A stretch of 64,000 nucleotides of DNA from Eledone cirrhosa (lineage: Eukaryota): the NCBI GenBank assembly GCA_964016885.1, contig OZ024743.1, positions 340,752,001 through 340,816,000 of the forward strand. Direction: 5' to 3'. The notes below the pieces were generated by a model. The model made no database searches. It had not been told where the DNA came from and worked only from the letters and a program-made list of their open reading frames with translations. Below are positions 23,499 through 63,829 of the stretch, one piece after another (within the stretch, counting starts at the first letter, position 1; each line of letters starts with the position of its first letter). The translations under genes and the position numbers were made by a program.

Positions 23499-23572
<74 letters not shown>

Positions 23573-23702
23573 GTGAGGTTTTTTTTACAAAATGAAAAAT
23601 AACCGAGGTGTCCTACACGAGTGGAAGTATAAAGAAAAAGGGATGAAATCGAAAATGCAACTGAAGTCTTATTTTTTTAAAAATATATATATTTATTTGG
23701 TT

Positions 23703-23740
23703 CCTTTACCGGTTTCGCAGTTCTTCTGCTTTTCAAAAGG
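23703..23740 (-). ncRNA. Hammerhead with U3-A8 covariant core
   Basis: Reverse complement: cctt TTGAAAA gcag-aagaa-ctgc GAAA ccgg TA aagg. Confidence 0.8.
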
Positions 23741-24452
23741 TGAGTTGAGATGGAGGGTCTGTGGTTTTTCTCACATCTGGTTGGTCTCTAAATGTTACTT
23801 GTTTTATATGGAAAAACTGGCTCGAAAACCAGGTTTTTCGAGAAGTAATTTGATTGGTTTGTCAATAATTATAATAAATTTCGCGCCAGTTCGCGTTACA
23901 ATAGTTCTTCAAATAAGAGAGGGGGGGGTTTGTCACAGGTTGTTTTTTCATATATGAGTGTTTGAATTTCTTTTTACTTGAAAAAAATGAGGCTCACGAA
24001 GGCTTTTTTTTGGTTGGTTATAAATGAAATTTGGCTGTCACGTGAACAAGTTTTCATTACATTTTCGCGCCCTTATTTGGAGTGTGTAGGAAAGTGGTTC
24101 TATTAGTAGAAATGGGGAGGGTGTTGTAGGTGTGGGGGTTTTTATGTGTGTGTATGGGTGTTATGTGTGTGGGAGTATGGTTAGCATGTTAAGATGAAGA
24201 GAATATATATATATATATATATATATTGTGTGTGTGTATGTGTGTGTGTAGGAAAATGATTCCTTTAGTAGGAATATTTTTGAATGAACATATTTTCCTG
24301 ACTTTTTCGTGTTTGCTGTTGTATTGCCAGTGCAAACGTATGTTTAAGGTTTATTTAGTTCTGGTTTTCGAGCCAGTTTTTCCATATAAAACAAGTAACA
24401 TTTAGAGACCAACCAGATGTGAGAAAAACCACAGACCCTCCATCTCAACTCA

Positions 24453-24490
24453 CCTTTTGAAAAGCAGAAGAACTGCGAAACCGGTAAAGG
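24453..24490 (+). ncRNA. Hammerhead with U3-A8 covariant core
   Basis: cctt TTGAAAA gcag-aagaa-ctgc GAAA ccgg TA aagg. Confidence 0.8.
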
Positions 24491-24557
24491 AACCAAATAA
24501 ATATATATATTTTAAAAAAATAAGACTTCAGTTGCATTTTCGATTTCATCCCTTTTT

Positions 24558-24837
<280 letters not shown>

Positions 24838-29724: not shown

Positions 29725-29912
29725 AAAGTGAGGTTTTTTTACAAAATGAAAAATAACCGAGGTGTAAAGAAAAAAGATGAAATCGAAAATGCAACTGGAG
29801 TCTTATTTTTTAAAAAATATATATATTTATTTGGTTCCTTTACAGGTTTCGCAGTTCTTCTGCTTTTCAAAAGTAGAGTTGAGATGGAGGGTCTGTAGTT
29901 TTTCTCACATCT
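29725..29912 (-). mobile_element. Solo pLTR of the U3-A8 HHR family (HHR at 29837-29874, slightly mutated)
   Basis: Homologous to 23570-23778; TTGAAAA core retained. Confidence 0.8.
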
Positions 29913-33879: not shown

Positions 33880-34503
33880 CTAAGGCGGGTAAAATTCCCG
33901 AGATCCATGAACGAGTTCTCTCCAGCGGTCTCTGTCCCTCATTATCGCTGCCATGTCCTGCATCTCCACCAGACCAGTGTCTGTCCTTAGGGCATCAACA
34001 TACGTTAACCTTGGTCTTCCTCTTCTAGTGTGTCCATGTAGGGGCTCCCACAGGAGCACTGAGTGCAATGTCAACTCTGGATGTCGGTGAGCATGTCCAG
34101 CTAACCTCAGTCTCCTCTGTGTCACTTTTGAGCTGACTTTTGGGATGCTCCCATACAGCTCTGAGTTTTTCATCCTCAGTGTATACTGATTAATCTTCAG
34201 AGCCATCCTCAGCATTCTCGTGTAGCACCCATCCACCATCTGAGTGAATTTCCTGGTCAGTGTCCAAGTCTCAGAACGGCTTCAGAGAGGGAAGATCAAC
34301 CACCAGTCACATCCTGATGCTGAGGAGGATATTAGAGGGAGCTAGAGCAAAGTGCCTTCCTGCTGTCATGGTTTTCATTGACTTTAGGAAGGCCTTTGAT
34401 TCTGTGGACCGTTACTGCCTGATGAAGATCTTACAGGCTTATGGAATCCCCAAGAAGATAGTGCACCTGATATCACTGCTCTACACCAACACCAAAGCCC
34501 AAG

Positions 34504-34506
<3 letters not shown>
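33880..34506 (-). mobile_element. RTE-clade LINE 3' end with 5' inversion (34266-34506 on + strand)
   Basis: Minus strand: RT C-terminus RRLRLAGHAHR...GRPRLTY; plus strand: QNGFREGRST...FIDFRKAFDSV; (TA)n both sides. Confidence 0.9.
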
Positions 34507-34538
<32 letters not shown>

Positions 34539-34774
34539 AGGTCACCAGTTGGTGCTACTGGTAACATGTATCCCAGTACAACCTGTCTTGGGAAACTATG
34601 AGTGGCTATGAAGGTGTACGCCAGTTTGCTATCTATTACTATATAGTACATACATGCATGCATACATACACATACCTGCACACACACACATAGATACACA
34701 TACATACATTCATACATACATAGAGAGAGAGGGTGAAAGACGGAGAGTGAGAGAGAGAGAGAGAAAGAGAGAGT

Positions 34775-43411: not shown

Positions 43412-46062
43412 CACTTACATGAACTTGTACTTGTGTCAACATTCACCCTGTATTGGTTTAGCCGGCTTCTTCCCTTGTCCTGAGGGCATCCCAAACCATG
43501 GCCGCCCACGCACGACGGTCCCGAGCTAGGTCACCGGAGATAGCGAGCCTGTCACGGTTCCATCGGTGAAGGCCGACCACCTACGGACCTGAGAGTTCGG
43601 AGAGGTCATCCTTGATCGTCGTTGCCCAGGTCTACAGCTGCCCGCCAACGCGCTTGCGCCAGTTAGGGAGTGGAGGTGGGAGCAGAACATCGCGGATCAG
43701 CTCACCCTCAGGGCGCCGGGCTGCGTGACCAAACCATCTCAAGCGCTGTTTTAGAAGCACTGAAGGAAGGGGTCGAAGATTCAGCTGAAGATGAAGACTT
43801 GTGGTAGGTACCCGATCAACGCGTTGGCAGCGAAAAATGCGGCGGAGACAGTCATTGTCGAAGACATCCAGCCCTCGTTGATCAACTACCCTCATAGGCC
43901 ATGTTTCACAGCCATAGAGAAGGATAGTGCGAATGACGGCCTGGTAGATTCGCCCTATGGTCGCCGAGGTGATCTCTCTTCTGTCCCACAGACACCGTTG
44001 GAGGCGCCCTAAAGCGGATCTGGCAGCACCTATGCGACGCTTGACCTCGGCTGCGCCCTGTCCTGTTGGAACCACTGTTGAGCCCAGGTAAAACGAAGGA
44101 CTCCACATCTTCCAGGCCCATGCCCTCGAGAGATATTGGCTGCCAGACATCAGGCGAGACCAGGGACGTCATGACTTTCGACTTGGCGGCAGTGATTCGT
44201 AGACCAAAATCGGTGGGTGCAGTGTGTACCCTTTCGAGAGCACCCTGTACATCTGTCCTGTTAGCGCCCATCAGCACGATGTCATCCGCGTAGGCCAGGT
44301 CCGTCACCACTACCCCTCTCCCGACCTCTACGCCCGGGTAATCCCGGAGCGCTGTGTTGGGAGTGTAGTCAATGGCGTAGTTAAAGAGAGTTGGCGATAG
44401 CGCACACCCCTACTGAACACCGGTCCCAACATCGAACGACTCCGCCTCCCCACAATAGACCCTCACTCGAACCCGAGTCGACCGGTAGTAGCCTTGTATG
44501 AGACGAAGCAGCTTCACTGGGATGCCGTCCGCCTGCATTATAAGAATAGGGCTTCCCGATCTACCGAGTCGAAGGCAGCTGAAAAGTCGAGGAAGCAGAG
44601 GACGGTAGGCTGTTGATGTGCCCACCGTGGTTCCAAGACACGCCGGTGAATAAAGATTTGATCAACGCACCCCCTCCCCGAACGGAATCCGCCCTGAGAA
44701 AGACGGGTACGGACATCACGGATGGCCTGGAACCTCTTCAGCAGAAGTTTGCGAAGGTTTTGCAGCAACGTCAATTAAACTGATACCTGTAGTTGGAACA
44801 CAGTTTCCTGTCGCCTTTTTTGAAGAAGAGTAGGAGAGCTGCCTCGCTCCAGTCACCATGTAACCGCTCCGTCGCCCACACGGAGGAGAAGACTCGATGG
44901 AGCCAAGCTGCGAAGACATCAGGCTCGGCCTTGTAGACCTCAGCTGGAACGCCATCTTCGCCCGGCGCCTTGTTGTTCCGGAGATGTGTCAGGACACTAC
45001 GAACCTCCTCGACCGTTGGAGGAACATTACTGCACCCGTATTCTTCTGCGGAAGGCTGCACGTAGGTTGGCGTGGGTGGTGGCGGGAGGTTGAGCAGCTC
45101 CGAGAAATGGTCCCGCCATCGGTCTAGCCGGTCATTAAGATTGGTAATGACCGCCCCGTTCCGATCACAGACCGTCTCGCTGATACCCGTACTGCTTCGG
45201 CTGGCCAGCTTCACCAGTTGGTAGAGCTTGCACGAGTCACCACCGGCTGCTGCCCTCTCCGTCTGCTCCGCAAATTCGCGCCAGTGTGCATTCCGATCGG
45301 CCCGAATAACCTGAGATGTGCGACGTCGGGGATCTCGAAGATTGGGTGCACCCTCGAGTCGGGCCACTCACGCCCTCTCCGCGAGTTCAAGAGTGCCGCC
45401 GGAGATCCTGTCCCGATGGCGTCTTTGGGTCGACCCGAGATGCTCTCTGGCCACCTCAACCGTTACTCAGCATTTCGAATCGGTTTCGCATCTATAGCAG
45501 GAAAGCATTTCCAGCATCGAGCTTGAGTCGAGAGATGTCGATCCTTTTCTGGCGGTTGGGAGGAGGTTTCGCCTGCAGCCGCAGACGAAGGGTTGCTCGA
45601 ACAAGAGTATGGTCTGACCCATGCTCACTGCCCGTATCAGCCCCTCCATACGAACGCGAGTCCATCACTGAGCTGGCCCACCGAGATATGACCAGGATGT
45701 AGTCAATCTGATTGGCCGTTCTTCCGTCGTGACGAGGTGACGCCGAGGATGTAGGAACCGGGTGTTGGTGACGATAATACGATTGGCATCCGCGAAGGAC
45801 ACGAGCCGTTCAACATTGTCACAGCGTACGCCTAGGGCGAAGCGTCCTAGAATATGCCGTGTTGTATCATCAGCCGGCCCCGTCCGCGCATTCCAGTCCC
45901 CAGCGACAATGAGAACATCACTGGAGGAGACGCCATCCACAGTGTTTGGAGATCGACATAGAACTGCGTCTTGTCTGCTTCGTCCGCATTGAGTGTGGGA
46001 GCGTAGACGGCAATTACACTGACGTTGGAGATTTTACTCTTCAATCGAACCAGCGCAAGTCT
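43412..46062 (-). mobile_element. RTE-clade LINE (SR2-like), 5'-truncated within the APE domain, frameshifted
   Basis: [13 protein letters not shown] (APE); KAPGEDG, QGGFRSGR, FLDFSAAFDSV, LAYADD, LLYGCETW, RLRWFGH (RT); short repeat tail. Confidence 0.93.
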
Positions 46063-52993: not shown

Positions 52994-53009
52994 TTTTATA
53001 TATATATAT

Positions 53010-53244
53010 ATAAAGAAAAAGAGATGAAATCGAAAATGCAATTGGAGTCTTATTTTTTTAAAAAATATATATATTTATTTGGTTCCTTTACCGGTTTCGC
53101 AGTTCTTCTGCTTTTCAAAAGGTGAGTTGAGATTTAAAAAAAAAATAAGACTCCAGTTGCATTTTCGATTTCATCTCTTTTTCTTTATACTTTCACTCGT
53201 GTAGGACGCCTCGGTTATTTTTCATTTTGTAAAGAAAACCTCAC

Positions 53245-53252
<8 letters not shown>
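53010..53252. mobile_element. Fold-back of the U3-A8 family; HHR at 53085-53122 (-)
   Basis: Same 38-nt HHR as 23703-23740; inverted tail at 53135-53252. Confidence 0.85.
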
Positions 53253-53290
<38 letters not shown>

Positions 53291-57015: not shown

Positions 57016-58720
57016 TTATTAGATGCCAAATTTTTGGAATGTTTTACATATTTTTACTGTTCCATTAATGGATTTCCTAACTATTTGTGTTCTTTCTGTT
57101 CCTGTGAAGCCTAGTTTCTCAAGATTTGTATTGAGGCAGTTACTAACATACCCCATTGCCCCAATAATCACAGGCATAAAACTGAGGGTGTAATCAGAGT
57201 GGAGTATCTGCATAAATATTCTCCTTTTCGTTAATCTTTGATATTATATTGGCATCTGCTGGGCTGCTAACTTCCTCTACTGTGCATGGTTTCTTCTCCC
57301 TGTCCCATATCATAATACCTTGTCTGTTATGTCTGCATTTTATTGGGTTTTTTACTGGAACATTCCACCAGTACTCTTTCATATTATGTATATATGGATG
57401 TCTTCCACATTGTTGTAGTTTTTAATGTGTTTATTATCGGGGCTATGTTTTCTACGGATTGCATTGTACGGTGTTTTGGCCACTACATCATGCCTCATAG
57501 GTAGATAGTACCGCGATGACATCTTTGGACAGCTGCTGATGAAATGGGTGACATCTTCGATGTTAATTCTGCAGATTCTGCACTTGTTATCACATCTAGG
57601 TGTTTTGGCTGCATCCCTATATCTTTTATGAATCAGGTATTTCGTGTTAATTTCCTGTTCTTGGATTGCAAAGGCGTATCATTAAAAGTGGGAGCCAATA
57701 TAGCGGTTGTTAGACCAAGATAGACTACTTTCTTTATCTATATTACTCTCACTCTGGAGCTTCCTGGCAACATATCCTTGCATGATTTTTTGCTGATAAA
57801 CATGCAGTTTTTCATCCATGGATTCACTACGATATTGCTGTGCGTCTTCCCTGGGTGTAAGCTTTTGATTATCACACAGGGAATATCTCTCGAGGAGTTC
57901 GTTCCCAACTCTCATGATCTTATCTGTTTCATGCAGATAGACTTTCTCGAGAGACGGGCTCCTACGTTTCGAGGTTCGTATATGTTGTCTGAGGGATATG
58001 ATGCGACATTCAAATGCTGTCTGTACTGACATTAGGCCTCTGCCTCCCTGCTTACGTTTCAAGTAAAGGCGGTCTATGTCACTGTTGATGAGGAAGTTTC
58101 CGGTGTTGTTTAGTATTTTTCGAGTTCTAACATCAACTGCTCGGATTTCCTCTATCGTCTAATTGAGTATTCCAAACGTTGGTGTTAGGACAGACACAGC
58201 AAACACATTGTGAGCCACTGTTTTGTTGTGCGCAGAGAGTTCCGATGACCATATTTTTTTTAATCGGGTGTAGTATTCCCTGGTTACGCGTTCCTTATTG
58301 CAGATACCATTATAGGATATGTTCCCATCTCCTCCCAGGTATCTGTAGCAGTCTTTATCAGATATCGATGAAACAGTTAGACCATTGATGACAATGTTGC
58401 TAGATTGGGTTATTGTTTTTACCCGCTTTACAGTCATGTATGAGCATTTATCTTGGCCAAACTCCATTCCTATATCCTTTGAGAACGTTGTAACCAGGTC
58501 AAGATTTTTCTTCATCCCATCCATGTTCTTGGTATAGAGTTTCAGATCATCCACAAAGAAGTTATGGGTTAGGTTCGTATTTCTGTCCTCCTGTGAGCGA
58601 ATGATGTATCCTTCACATTTCTTGAGCAGAAAAGACAAGGGGTTTAATGACAGGATGAATAATATCACAGAGAGACTGTCTCCCTGAAATATACCCCTGC
58701 GATATTTTATTTTATCAGTG
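57016..58720 (-). mobile_element. R4/Dong-type non-LTR retrotransposon (RT, CCHC, restriction-like endonuclease), 5'-truncated and decayed
   Basis: GIFQGDSLS, FFVDDLKLY, DIGMEFGQDKC, GGRGL, CRIC...HFISSC...RHD, KINEKENIY, VIIGAMG. Confidence 0.9.
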
Positions 58721-59134
58721 TATGTATAAACGTATGTATGTACGTATTTATGTTTTTATGTGCGTATCTATGTATGTATGCATGCATGTGTGCCTGTCTG
58801 TCAGTCTGTCAGTCTGTCTATATGTATATATGCAGGATAGCATTGGTGTATTTATATGTAGTTATGTATGTGAGTTAAAAATAAGATAGGTGAATGGCTG
58901 TATAATGTTGGTAAATGTAAAATTCAAATGGAAAGTAATACAAAACCTAAACAAAGTTCTCATAACGATTGTTTTCGTTTGTAACAGCAGATGGCATTCA
59001 CTTCGGACTATACTGTAGTGACAGGTTAAAAATAGGCCAGTTGTTGCACGGATATTGTGAAATGAAGCAATGAATAGGCGAACAAATAGACAAAAGAAAA
59101 AGAACGAATATACTTGAGGGTAAAACACAGACTT

Positions 59135-59165
<31 letters not shown>

Positions 59166-59168
<3 letters not shown>

Positions 59169-59725
59169 AGGCGGGTAAAATTCCCGAGATCCATGGACGA
59201 GTTCTCTCCAGCGGTCTCTGTCCCTCATTATCGCTGCCATATCCTGCATCTCCAACAGACCAGTGTCTGTCCTTAGGGCATCAAGATATGTTAACCTTGG
59301 TCTTCCTCTTCTAGTGTGTCCATGTAGGGGCTCCCAAAGGAGCACTGAGTGCAATGTCAACTCTGGATGTCGGTGAGCATGTCCACCCAACCTCAGTCTT
59401 CTCTGTGTCACTTTTGAGCTGACTTTTGGGATGCTCCCATACAGCTCTGAGTTTTTCATCCTCAGTGTATACTGATTAATGTTCAGAGCCATCCTCAGCA
59501 TTCTAGTGTAGCACCCATCCACCATCTGAGTGAGTCTCTTGGTCAGTGTCCAAGTCTCAGACCCATACAGCAGCACAGACTCCACTACAGCAATGAAGAG
59601 GCGGATTTTCAGGTCTCTACGAAGGTCCGACTTCCACACCGACCTCAAGCTGTGACACGCCGCCCAGGCCTTGCTCTTCCTCTCAACCACATCATCCTCC
59701 GTATTCCCAATCTTTGCTCCCAAAT

Positions 59726-59728
<3 letters not shown>
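59166..59728 (-). mobile_element. RTE-clade LINE 3' end, same family as 33880-34275
   Basis: YLGAKI...LLYGSETW...GRPRLTY; near identical to the 33880 copy; both end at the stop codon next to (TA)n. Confidence 0.92.
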
Positions 59729-59760
<32 letters not shown>

Positions 59761-59762
<2 letters not shown>

Positions 59763-60312
59763 AAATTAACACGAAATACCTGATTCACAAAAGCGATAGG
59801 GATGCAGGCAAAACACCAAGATGTGGTAACAAGTGCAGACTCTGCAGAATTATATATATATATCGGAATTTTCAACATCCATTCCTATAATCTGCGGGAA
59901 AACATTCAGGAACAGACACAAACACTTACACTATTTTTGCACGCTACCATACATCCACACCACACAAAAACACATACACCCACATGCGTATCCTCACCTA
60001 CACACACTCGGCCTCCAGACTCCGCACGCCCTCTATTCCCCACCGCCTCTGACCCCTCTCCATCCACACGCACACACACACGTACACCTATACGCATACA
60101 CACTCACCACCTTCCGCCCTCCCCACTCGGACCCATGTCTACCCCCCCCCCCACCACACGCCACACACCCTTTCACCACTTGTTTCATTTTAATTTTTTT
60201 ACCCTTTTTAATCCCCTCCCTTTAATGTCTTTCCACCACTCCCTTCACACCGTCGGAACTCTTTTCCTGTCGACTTTCCCCTGATGAAGGGCTTATGCCC
60301 GAAACGTTAACT
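59761..60312 (+). mobile_element. Decayed Neptune-type PLE 3' part (Cys linker, EN C-terminus, CA-rich UTR, HHR at 60281-60308)
   Basis: NTKYLIHKS...GKTPRCGNKCRLCRI; CTGATGA a-gggc-ttat-gccc GAAA cg TT. Confidence 0.7.
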
Positions 60313-61697: not shown

Positions 61698-63089
61698 GAG
61701 AAGTGTGTGGGAACAGAGTTCAAAAGGTGTGTATGGGAGTGGTGGAGAGACATAGAGCGAAAGGAAACGGTGCGAATGAAAAATTAACAAATAAAAACAA
61801 AAAATATAAAAAATAAAAATATAGCATGATCAAAATACAAGGAATGAGAAAATTTAAAAATAAAGGCATGATCAAAATAAACTGAAATTAAAAGGGGGGG
61901 TAAACAGGTGGTGGAAGGGTGTGGGGTGAGTAGGGGTGGTGGCGGGTGGAGTGGGGAGAGGGAGACGGGGTGTCTGAGCGGGGAGGGCTGAAGGTGGTGT
62001 GTGCGTGTAGGTGTGCGTGTGTGTGTGTGTGTATGTGAAAGTGAGGGTTGGGGGAAGAACGGGGTTGCATGTTCAGGAAGAGGTGTGTGTGGGAGGGTGT
62101 TTATGTGGGTCGGAGTGTCTGTGCGTGTGTGGATAGGGGGGTGGGGGGAGAGGAATCAGGAGGCCGAGGGTGTAAATACGTGGTGGGAAGCACGTGTGTG
62201 TGGGGTTTAAGCGTGTTGTGGGTGTGGGTGGCGTGTGGAGAAAACAAATTTTTTTGGGGTGTGTGTGTGGGTGAGTTATATAGGTGATGATGTAAGAGGA
62301 TGGTTGAAAAGTTGGTAAGTTCCAAGGATGTTTGGAGATTTGGTTATAAGTCAATTTCTGCGTGTGGGTAATCCATGAAGCGGTGGTCGGAAGAGGAGAG
62401 ATGTGGGCTGCGCGCGCAACAGGAAGTGGTCAGCAGTGGGAGTGCTGTGGTCAGTTGGTGCTGGGAGGTGGTCGGAAGGGCATAGCAGCAGTCGGTGGAA
62501 TGGTAGGGAGGCGAGGATGGGTAGGTGTGAGAGTTGGAGTGAGGAGGGAGTGGGTGTGTGTATTAGTAGGGGTGTTAGTGGGATGAGTGAGTGTGGAGCG
62601 GGGGTGTGGGTGGAGCGGGGAGAGAAGGGTGTGTGTGGTTCTATGGAGGGAGTGTGGTGTACTGGTATGTGTGTAGTTGGGTGAAGAGGTGTTAGTGGGT
62701 GTTAGTATACGGGAGGTGGGGAGGGGTAGAATGCAGGTGTGAGTGGGGGTTAGTAGTGGTAGGGTGTGTAGAGTTGGTGGTGTACGAGGGTGTGTGGGTA
62801 CGTGTGCGTGGGGTTGGGGGGTGTTAGTAATGTTAGTTGCGTGTGGGGTGGGTGGTGTAAGTGGGTGCGTGTGTGCGTGTGATAAGGAGGGGGAGGAGGA
62901 GAAGAGGGGAGGGATGGGATGTTAGTATGTTAGTTGGGGAAGGGTGGTCAGATGAGGGGTGGAGTGGAGGTGTTAGTATTGTTAGTGTGGGGTGGGCGGT
63001 GAAAGGGGGGGGGGGTGTTAGTGGTGTTAGTGTGGGATAAGTGTGTGTGGGGGGGGGGGGGGGGTCGAACGCTAAAGGAATAAGTGTGG

Positions 63090-63790
63090 GGAGTTCAGGC
63101 CGGGGGGATTGTGGGTCTGTAAGATGAAGATAGTTCGTTGTTCGACCGTAAGGCGATGGGCGGGTGTTCCGTGGCACTGGAGTAGGCCACAGACTGTGAG
63201 ATGGCGTGCGGTGTGTCCAGGGCCACCAAAGTGGTGGGCGATGGGGGAACTGCCCCCGAGACGAATATCCCGGAGGTGCTCCGTGACTCGGTCCGCCAGG
63301 CGACGTCCCGTCTGTCCGACGTAAGTCGCGCTGTACTCCGTGCAGCGAAGTCCGTAGATTTGGTTGGAGGAGGTGCAGCGGAAGGCATGTCGGACCGAGA
63401 GAGAGTGGCCGTTGGGACCCTGGAAGGTGGTGGTGTTGGTGATGTGGGGACAGGTGTTGCAGCGGGGCCTAGAACAGGGGAAGGAACCGGGGGGGGGAAC
63501 AGAGCGTGGGTTGGGGGGTAGGGAGCTGTGGACGAGGAGGGTGCGGAGATTGCGTGCGCGTTTGAAGGAGGGGAGTGGTGGGGTTGGGAAGATGTGGGAG
63601 GTGGAGGGGTCGGACTGGAGGCGTCGGAAGAGGCGGCGGATGGTGCGGTGGAGGGGTAAGATGGAGGGGTGGTAGGTGATGGGGAAGGGGAGACGGTGGG
63701 TGGGTGTGCGGTGGCGTGGGGTGAGGGTGGTGGAGCGGGGGATAGCACGGGCGTGGTTGAGAGCGGTGTAGACGAGAGGGGGGGGGGGGG
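63090..63790 (-). CDS. PLE RT C-terminus, Cys-rich linker and GIY-YIG endonuclease (open frame without start codon; not the frame in the ORF track)
   Basis: Manual translation: RLPFPITYHP...FKRARNLRTLLVHS...PCSRPRCNTCPHI...FRCTSSNQIYGLRCTEYSATYVGQTGRRLADRVTEHLRDI...PIAHHF...RLTVEQRTIFILQTHNPPGLN. Confidence 0.9.
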
Positions 63791-63829
63791 TAAACTCTGC
63801 GGATGAAATGGCTGACTAGGGAAAGGGCC

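What the first reader, a model, noticed from the sequence alone, without database searches (positions are those of the whole stretch)
23703..24490. Hammerhead family with natural U3-A8 covariation (core UUGAAAA)
Seen: cctt-TTGAAAA-gcag(aagaa)ctgc-GAAA-ccgg-TA-aagg with perfect stems I and II and palindromic stem III. The core is the same in all four copies (23703, 24453, 29837, 53085). Established: C3 and G8 form a tertiary Watson-Crick pair, and compensatory swaps can rescue activity. Inference: a functional variant fixed in a whole PLE family that CUGANGA-based searches would miss.
Basis: partly seen in the sequence, partly recalled or inferred. Interest (0 to 1): 0.75.

Follow-up and report, generated by a model that had tools for sequence, protein, structure and literature searches.

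The report
Known U-A hammerhead in Penelope elements
The motif is a real copy of the small hammerhead RNA motif carried by a very abundant family of Penelope-like jumping genes, with a U-A pair in place of the usual C-G in its core; it likely cuts itself only weakly and in pairs, and this same core swap was published for such elements in 2014, so it is a new example rather than a new kind.

Summary
Observation confirmed, except that the copy at 29837 has broken stems I and III. The motif is the minimal type I hammerhead in the pseudo-LTR of a Neptune/Nematis-type Penelope-like element (PLE); a full-length RT + GIY-YIG parent with two direct copies was found (L083). U3-A8 is fixed: 12,652 genomic matches, none C3-G8. 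It is shared by at least four related families whose stems differ but still pair, while other hammerhead families here keep C3-G8. So the covariation lies between families and may be one old event. It is not new: Cervera & De la Peña 2014 reported U3-A8 in Schistosoma PLEs, including the same UUGAAAA core; this scan also noted it in other genomes. Cleavage is untested. U3 is predicted to mispair with A17, no RNA run was listed, and a genomic junction test was inconclusive. The window copies are truncated, inverted and probably inert. The oddest by-product is a sister family of 11,949 copies that also changes core A13 to C.

The parts
24453..24490 (+). Minimal type I hammerhead motif, copy 2: stem I 24453-56/24487-90, U3 at 24457, A8 at 24462, stem II 24464-76, GAAA 24477-80, palindromic ACCGGU 24480-85, predicted cut after A17 at 24486
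23703..23740 (-). Identical motif, copy 1, in the long arm of the same insertion
23560..24368 (-). Long arm: 5'-truncated 3' fragment of the PLE pseudo-LTR (L083 3182-4337, about 99% identical) with an internal deletion of about 350 nt at 24081/24082
23560..23627 (-). 68-nt 'tail' (L083 4270-4337), present on this arm only; one of two recurrent 3' ends of the family
24361..24564 (+). Inverted short arm (L083 4065-4269) ending at the other recurrent 3' end and followed by (TA)n
29725..29912 (-). Older fragment of the same family (86.6% to L083) holding motif copy 3 (29837-29874) with broken stems I and III
53009..53257 (.). Third insertion: 53009-53133 (-) with motif copy 4 (53085-53122), plus an inverted arm 53139-53257 (+) that lacks the motif

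Best explanation
This is the minimal type I hammerhead motif of the pseudo-LTR of a Penelope-like retrotransposon family, with the core C3-G8 pair replaced by U3-A8 throughout the family; it likely still self-cleaves, weakly and only when two copies pair through the ACCGGU palindrome or a protein assists folding. Shown: full-length elements carry two direct copies 4,679 nt apart, the first with its predicted cut about 170 nt upstream of ORF1; related families keep U3-A8 while their stems change. Inferred: in a read-through transcript the two copies would pair and cut after GUA, releasing a unit-length RNA that may circularise, as proposed for other PLEs. Inferred: most templates are uncut or re-ligated, because the copies run through the intact motif. 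Inferred: the window's truncated, inverted copies are inert by-products.
For: Parent element L083: motif at 4161 and 8840, ORF1 400 aa, ORF2 775 aa with RVT_1 and GIY-YIG hits and a CX4CxxC linker. Fixation: 12,652 matches; 91 with non-U at 3 (45 C, 24 G, 22 A, all still A8); 53 with non-A at 8 (25 G, 16 C, 12 T, all still U3); 0 C3-G8 with this stem II. Clade-wide: 35,760 U3-A8 matches with the CCGG palindrome against 115 C3-G8 matches, the latter below their reversed control of 158. U3-A8 in 31 of 32 B, 28 of 29 C/C', 10 of 11 D and 18 of 18 E copies read. In the first 100 of 1,613 C/C' matches N7 differs from the majority in 18 and position 8 in 1. Stem II pairs in all six representatives with different sequences, and stem I shows double changes (cctt/aagg in A, gcaa/ttgt in C'). 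Two other families keep C3-G8 in 43 of 44 and 32 of 34 copies. The palindrome self-pairs at -8.9 kcal/mol. Published PLE min-HHRs cleave weakly as dimers (PMC4209133) or with protein help (PMC11167929).
Against: No cleavage or expression was measured. U3 is predicted to pair with A17 and extend stem I: -6.4 against -4.7 kcal/mol in the monomer, P=0.56, and -20.3 against -18.9 in the dimer. Stem I is only 2 bp in families C, D and E and 3 bp in B. Sister family B changed core A13 to C (97 of the first 100 of 11,949 matches) and still spread. In one pairwise-mutagenesis study only the G-C swap rescued this pair (PMC9901934). HHR mutants did not affect insertion in vitro, and no reads ended at the cut site, for the anole PLE (PMC11167929). 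0 of 30 ORF1-bearing copies start at the predicted cut.
Confidence: 0.6

Rival explanations
1. The hammerhead-shaped fold is kept in this PLE clade for a non-catalytic job, such as RNA dimerisation through the palindrome or a protein-binding site, and cleavage is lost or negligible.
For: The A13C family reached 11,949 copies and nests among GAAA families. Stem I has shrunk to 2 bp in three families, and C/C' have a U-U mismatch at the base of stem II. U3-A17 mispairing is predicted. The CCGG palindrome is present in all families found, though most patterns required it. Cleavage was dispensable for insertion in vitro.
Against: U4, G5, A6, A9, G12, A14, A15.1, U16.1 and H17 are present in all six representatives (partly required by the patterns), N7 varies as in active hammerheads, and family E has the GUC triplet, which removes the U3-A17 mispair.
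Confidence: 0.3
2. The copies in the window are themselves active ribozymes that cut local transcripts as monomers or as the local pair.
For: 3 of 4 copies are sequence-perfect.
Against: There is no stable stem III in a monomer. The two nearby copies lie on opposite strands, so one transcript holds one sense and one antisense copy that would form a 204-bp duplex.
Confidence: 0.05
3. U3 and A8 are two unrelated neutral mutations of a dead motif that hitch-hiked in one successful master copy.
For: Inside family A the two positions vary only as single mutations, and the expected number of double revertants (0.09) is too low to test selection. T/A-rich changes fit the AT-rich genome.
Against: The pair persists across families whose ORF2 proteins are only about 40-58% identical while N7, loops and stems turned over with compensation. 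No family fixed for a mismatch at 3-8 was seen.
Confidence: 0.05

Closest known systems
U3-A8 minimal hammerheads of Cercyon PLEs in Schistosoma mansoni (Cervera & De la Peña 2014, PMC4209133)
   Same: Type I minimal motif in the pLTR of a PLE, U3-A8 core (about 1,300 hits reported); supplement row S. mansoni(4) has the same UUGAAAA core; palindromic region III; G10.1-C11.1; most copies single or in opposite-strand pairs.
   Different: Here there is no extra base between positions 9 and 10.1, stem II is 4 bp rather than 7-8, region III has a CCGG insert, N17 is A (U in that row), and copy number is about ten times higher in one family, with about 35,760 across the clade.
Natural U3-A8 hammerheads (Perreault et al. 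2011, PMC3088659)
   Same: Same natural C3-G8 to U3-A8 covariation.
   Different: Described as several examples, not as a clade-wide state in retroelements (passages only).
Neptune/Nematis EN+ PLEs (as described in Craig et al. 2021, PMC8557442)
   Same: RT followed by a C-terminal GIY-YIG with a CX2-5CxxC linker, pLTRs, inverted 5'-truncated copies, tail, (TA)n targets.
   Different: Neptune versus Nematis not resolved; separate ORF1 joined by a likely -1 frameshift, an option the paper's Fig. 1 legend allows for some PLE types; tail 68 nt rather than 30-40.
PAc Poseidon element hammerhead (Frangieh et al. 2024, PMC11167929)
   Same: Two recurrent 3' ends that define a tail; copies run through an intact motif.
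   Different: PAc has C3-G8 and overlaps the ORF start; here the motif lies about 170-200 nt upstream of ORF1.

Membership tests
Minimal type I hammerhead of PLEs | Core U4 G5 A6 N7, A9, G12 A13 A14 A15.1, U16.1 H17 in type I order | tested here: met
   (family A)
Minimal type I hammerhead of PLEs | Watson-Crick pair between positions 3 and 8 (C-G, or the published U-A variant) | tested here: met
   U3-A8; variant published
Minimal type I hammerhead of PLEs | Short stems I and II supported by compensatory changes | tested here: met
   stem II pairs in six representatives; stem I 4 bp in A and C', 2-3 bp in B, C, D, E
Minimal type I hammerhead of PLEs | Palindromic region III allowing a dimer | tested here: met
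   ACCGGU self-duplex -8.9 kcal/mol, (prediction)
Minimal type I hammerhead of PLEs | Location in the pLTR of an RT + GIY-YIG element | tested here: met
   L083
Minimal type I hammerhead of PLEs | [quoted passage not shown] | tested here: not met
   absent in family A; the paper's own alignment also has rows without it, e.g. CUGAUGA AGCC, so it is typical rather than required
Hammerhead ribozyme (function) | Site-specific self-cleavage after H17 | not testable with these tools
   no assay possible; no RNA run listed
Hammerhead ribozyme (function) | Genomic footprint of cleaved RNA 5' ends | tested here: inconclusive
Canonical CUGANGA hammerhead (Rfam models) | C3-G8 core and Rfam gathering score | tested here: not met
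Neptune/Nematis PLE | CX2-5CxxC linker before a C-terminal GIY-YIG | tested here: met
   CGRSNCGTC in L083 ORF2
Neptune/Nematis PLE | RT phylogeny with named reference elements | not tested
   no named PLE references among the relatives; tree holds unnamed proteins only
Non-LTR retrozyme | Short non-coding tandem units, each with a hammerhead | tested here: not met
   copies are dispersed 3' fragments of a coding element

The most novel reading that the evidence does not exclude
A whole clade of PLEs in this genome (about 36,000 motif copies, five or more families) runs on a re-tuned hammerhead core that cleaves in vivo. The excess of insertions starting at or one base after the predicted cut is a genomic footprint of that cleavage, and the 11,949-copy sister family shows that the U3-A8 background tolerates a further core change, A13C. 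That would be direct evidence of in vivo cleavage by a PLE hammerhead, which an RNA-seq search in the anole element did not detect, and a natural active A13C core for which my one paper search found no report.
Probability: 0.2. Interest if true: 0.55.

Novelty: new member of a known kind. Interest (0 to 1): 0.22.

Why it matters
As filed it matters little: the variant and a search descriptor for it have been in print since 2014. It adds a host lineage and a scale, since strict CUGANGA searches would miss tens of thousands of motifs here. Its best use is as a natural panel (families A and E intact, B with A13C, C with a U-U mismatch; N17 = A or C) for the open question of whether PLE hammerheads must cleave for retrotransposition.

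Tried and rejected
1) A C3-G8 ancestor of this family: 0 matches with the same stem II. A looser pattern gave 2; both are decayed copies 76-77% identical to the family, one with its C created by a deletion. Rejected as chance decay. Two family-D rows with G8 were not read at position 3. 2) Cleavage footprint in 5' junctions (hand counts): 82 places start at the predicted cut against 34 at a control 10 nt upstream. In matched TAT|A context: 45 at the cut, 6 at -9, 15 at -19. In the first 100 of 121 rows: 51 at the cut, 22 at +4. In the first 100 of 105 rows: 23 at -1/-2, 35 at 0, 19 at +1, 3 at +2 (35 v 23 not significant, P=0.15). A second hotspot at -13/-14 appears. The A13C family, meant as negative control, also peaks just 3' of the site (22 places: 2, 6, 11, 3 others). 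0 of 30 ORF1-bearing copies start at the cut. Inconclusive; microhomology with (TA)n can shape these counts. One search had a wrong IUPAC letter, so only its -9 count is valid. 3) Expression: no RNA holder listed; three contig sets of unknown kind show the two 3' ends but say nothing on RNA. 5) The two canonical C3-G8 families of the window could not be tied to a PLE ORF (1 hit in 60 loci, probably a separate insertion). 6) The MAFFT alignment of 12 motifs was not structural and was not used. 7) Lünse et al. 2017 and Przybilski & Hammann 2007 are not held; they may already cover U3-A8 or A13 variants.

Full report
Observation. The motif is in the window as described. The core and stem II match four times, with none in 100 shuffles. 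Three copies are identical and have 4-bp stems I and II and the ACCGGU palindrome; the copy at 29837 keeps the core but has lost one stem I pair and the palindrome. The copies at 23703 and 24453 are the two arms of one inverted insertion. Rfam reports no hammerhead in the window at gathering score, although my scan finds canonical C3-G8 motifs at 7067, 15926, 16512 and 41106.

What it belongs to. A search of the window's own genome (3.0 Gb) gave 846 candidates; the 40 scored were 99-100% identical. Extending five copies gave one full-length element, L083. It has the motif at 4161 and 8840 (4,679 nt apart), a 400-aa ORF1 from 4359, and a 775-aa ORF2 with RVT_1 (E 4.9e-06, below the curated cut-off) and GIY-YIG (E 3.7e-06) matches. 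The CX4CxxC linker before the nuclease fits Neptune/Nematis PLEs as described in PMC8557442 (passages). The window copies are 3' fragments of its pseudo-LTR. They end at one of two recurrent points 68 nt apart, also seen in three contig sets; this is the PLE 'tail' described in PMC11167929 (parts 1-2 of 4). The host is probably a mollusc, possibly an octopus; this is my inference from genome size, repeat make-up and bivalve-symbiont record names among the relatives, not a test.

Is U3-A8 fixed? Yes. There are 12,652 exact matches with positions 7 and 8 free, and 99 of the first 100 read TGAAAA. Among matches with T at position 2.1, 91 have another base at position 3 and all keep A8; 53 have another base at position 8 and all keep U3. 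None is C3-G8. About 0.09 double mutants would be expected by chance, so this shows fixation, not selection or covariation within the family.

Between families. A sister PLE found beside one copy (38-51% protein identity in four segments) has the homologous motif with U3-A8. A wider pattern gave 35,760 U3-A8 matches with the CCGG palindrome (reversed control 55) against 115 for C3-G8 (reversed control 158). By hand count the first 100 rows are 59 family A, 31 B, 4 C, 4 D, 2 E. U3-A8 holds in 31 of 32 B, 28 of 29 C/C', 10 of 11 D and 18 of 18 E copies. N7 is free: in the first 100 of 1,613 C/C' matches 18 differ at N7 and 1 at position 8. Stems change but keep pairing, although stem I is only 2-3 bp in B, C, D and E. 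Families B, C, C' and E are tied to related ORFs; D is not. A, B, C, C' and E fall in one 13-row clade with SH-aLRT 92 in a quick tree of 68 rows that used 60 of the 120 listed relatives. Two other hammerhead families keep C3-G8 in 43 of 44 and 32 of 34 copies.

How it likely works. Shown: architecture, fixation, conservation. Predicted: a monomer has no stable stem III, while two palindromes pair at -8.9 kcal/mol. Inferred from published PLE motifs: weak cleavage as a dimer (PMC4209133, parts 1-2 of 4; PMC6765202 passages) or with protein help, cutting after GUA about 170 nt upstream of ORF1 and again one unit later. Against it: U3 is predicted to pair with A17 in monomer and dimer; only the G-C swap rescued this pair in a pairwise-mutagenesis study of a type III hammerhead (PMC9901934 passages), whereas PMC3088659 (passages) cites U3-A8 as active in vitro; and family B changed A13 to C in 97 of the first 100 of 11,949 matches yet spread. 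That A13 changes lower activity is recalled, not read here. I looked for a footprint of cleavage in 5' junctions. There is a 2- to 7-fold excess at the predicted cut over three matched controls, but neighbouring positions are nearly as frequent, another hotspot exists, the A13C family shows a similar peak and 0 of 30 ORF1-bearing copies start there. The test is inconclusive. No RNA run was listed.

Comparison with what is known. Cervera & De la Peña 2014 report 'U3-A8 instead of C3-G8' in Schistosoma Cercyon PLEs, about 1,300 hits with a dedicated descriptor; their supplementary alignment lists a PLE-linked row with UUGAAAA (passages from file 2; file 1 could not be searched). Perreault 2011 reported natural U3-A8 earlier. 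A search for hammerhead + Penelope + Octopus returned no paper on this family among 4 listed, and hammerhead ribozyme + A13C returned 0; the library lacks most subscription papers and did not hold Lünse 2017 or Przybilski & Hammann 2007. The bioRxiv preprint 10.64898/2026.07.22.740005 (part 1 of 5) concerns tandem retrozymes, which this is not. Earlier notes of this scan record the same variant in other genomes; none concerns this genome or sequence.

Verdict. Real, well conserved, correctly assigned to a PLE family, and of a published kind. Activity is likely but untested. Interest 0.22; new member of a known kind. The A13C sister family and the scale of the clade are the parts a specialist might follow up.

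Noticed in passing
L085:8641, L146-L185, L351-L364 (sister family B): Homologous motif with U3-A8 and compensated stems but core GAAA changed to GCAA (A13C) in 97 of the first 100 of 11,949 matches; nests among GAAA families in the tree. One paper search for A13C gave 0.
   Followed up: partly
L083:5492-5498; also L229, L085, L175, L272, L357, L326: A T TTT TTA heptamer in the ORF1 frame sits at the ORF1/ORF2 overlap in several families; a -1 shift would enter the RT-EN frame, which has no early ATG. Likely a programmed frameshift; PMC8557442 Fig. 1 legend allows a frameshifted ORF1 in some PLE types; searches gave 0 papers.
   Followed up: partly
window 7067 (-), 15926 (-), 16512 (+), 41106 (+): Four canonical C3-G8 type I hammerhead motifs of two other repeat families, missed by Rfam at gathering score; no ORF linked.
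   Followed up: partly
window 63072-63815 (-): Fragment of a distant PLE with a GIY-YIG-like end, 24% identical to L083 ORF2.
   Followed up: partly
window 1-6508: Array of 311-bp units, 100% identical, in two inverted blocks meeting near 2788.
   Followed up: no
window 10915-10985 (+): Single tRNA-like match, 52.2 bits.
   Followed up: no
G000:C1:152839365-152839421: A copy whose 5' end repeats the first nine bases after the predicted cut site several times, like re-priming at a template end; single case.
   Followed up: no
L261-L290 (families C, C'): U-U (or U-A) at the base of stem II in a U3-A8 family of 1,613 matches; a U10.1-U11.1 mismatch is noted as tolerated in PMC3088659.
   Followed up: partly
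window 33880-34601, 43632-46033, 57682-59765 (-): Decayed reverse-transcriptase fragments of LINE-type elements, judged by eye from the ORF list.
   Followed up: no
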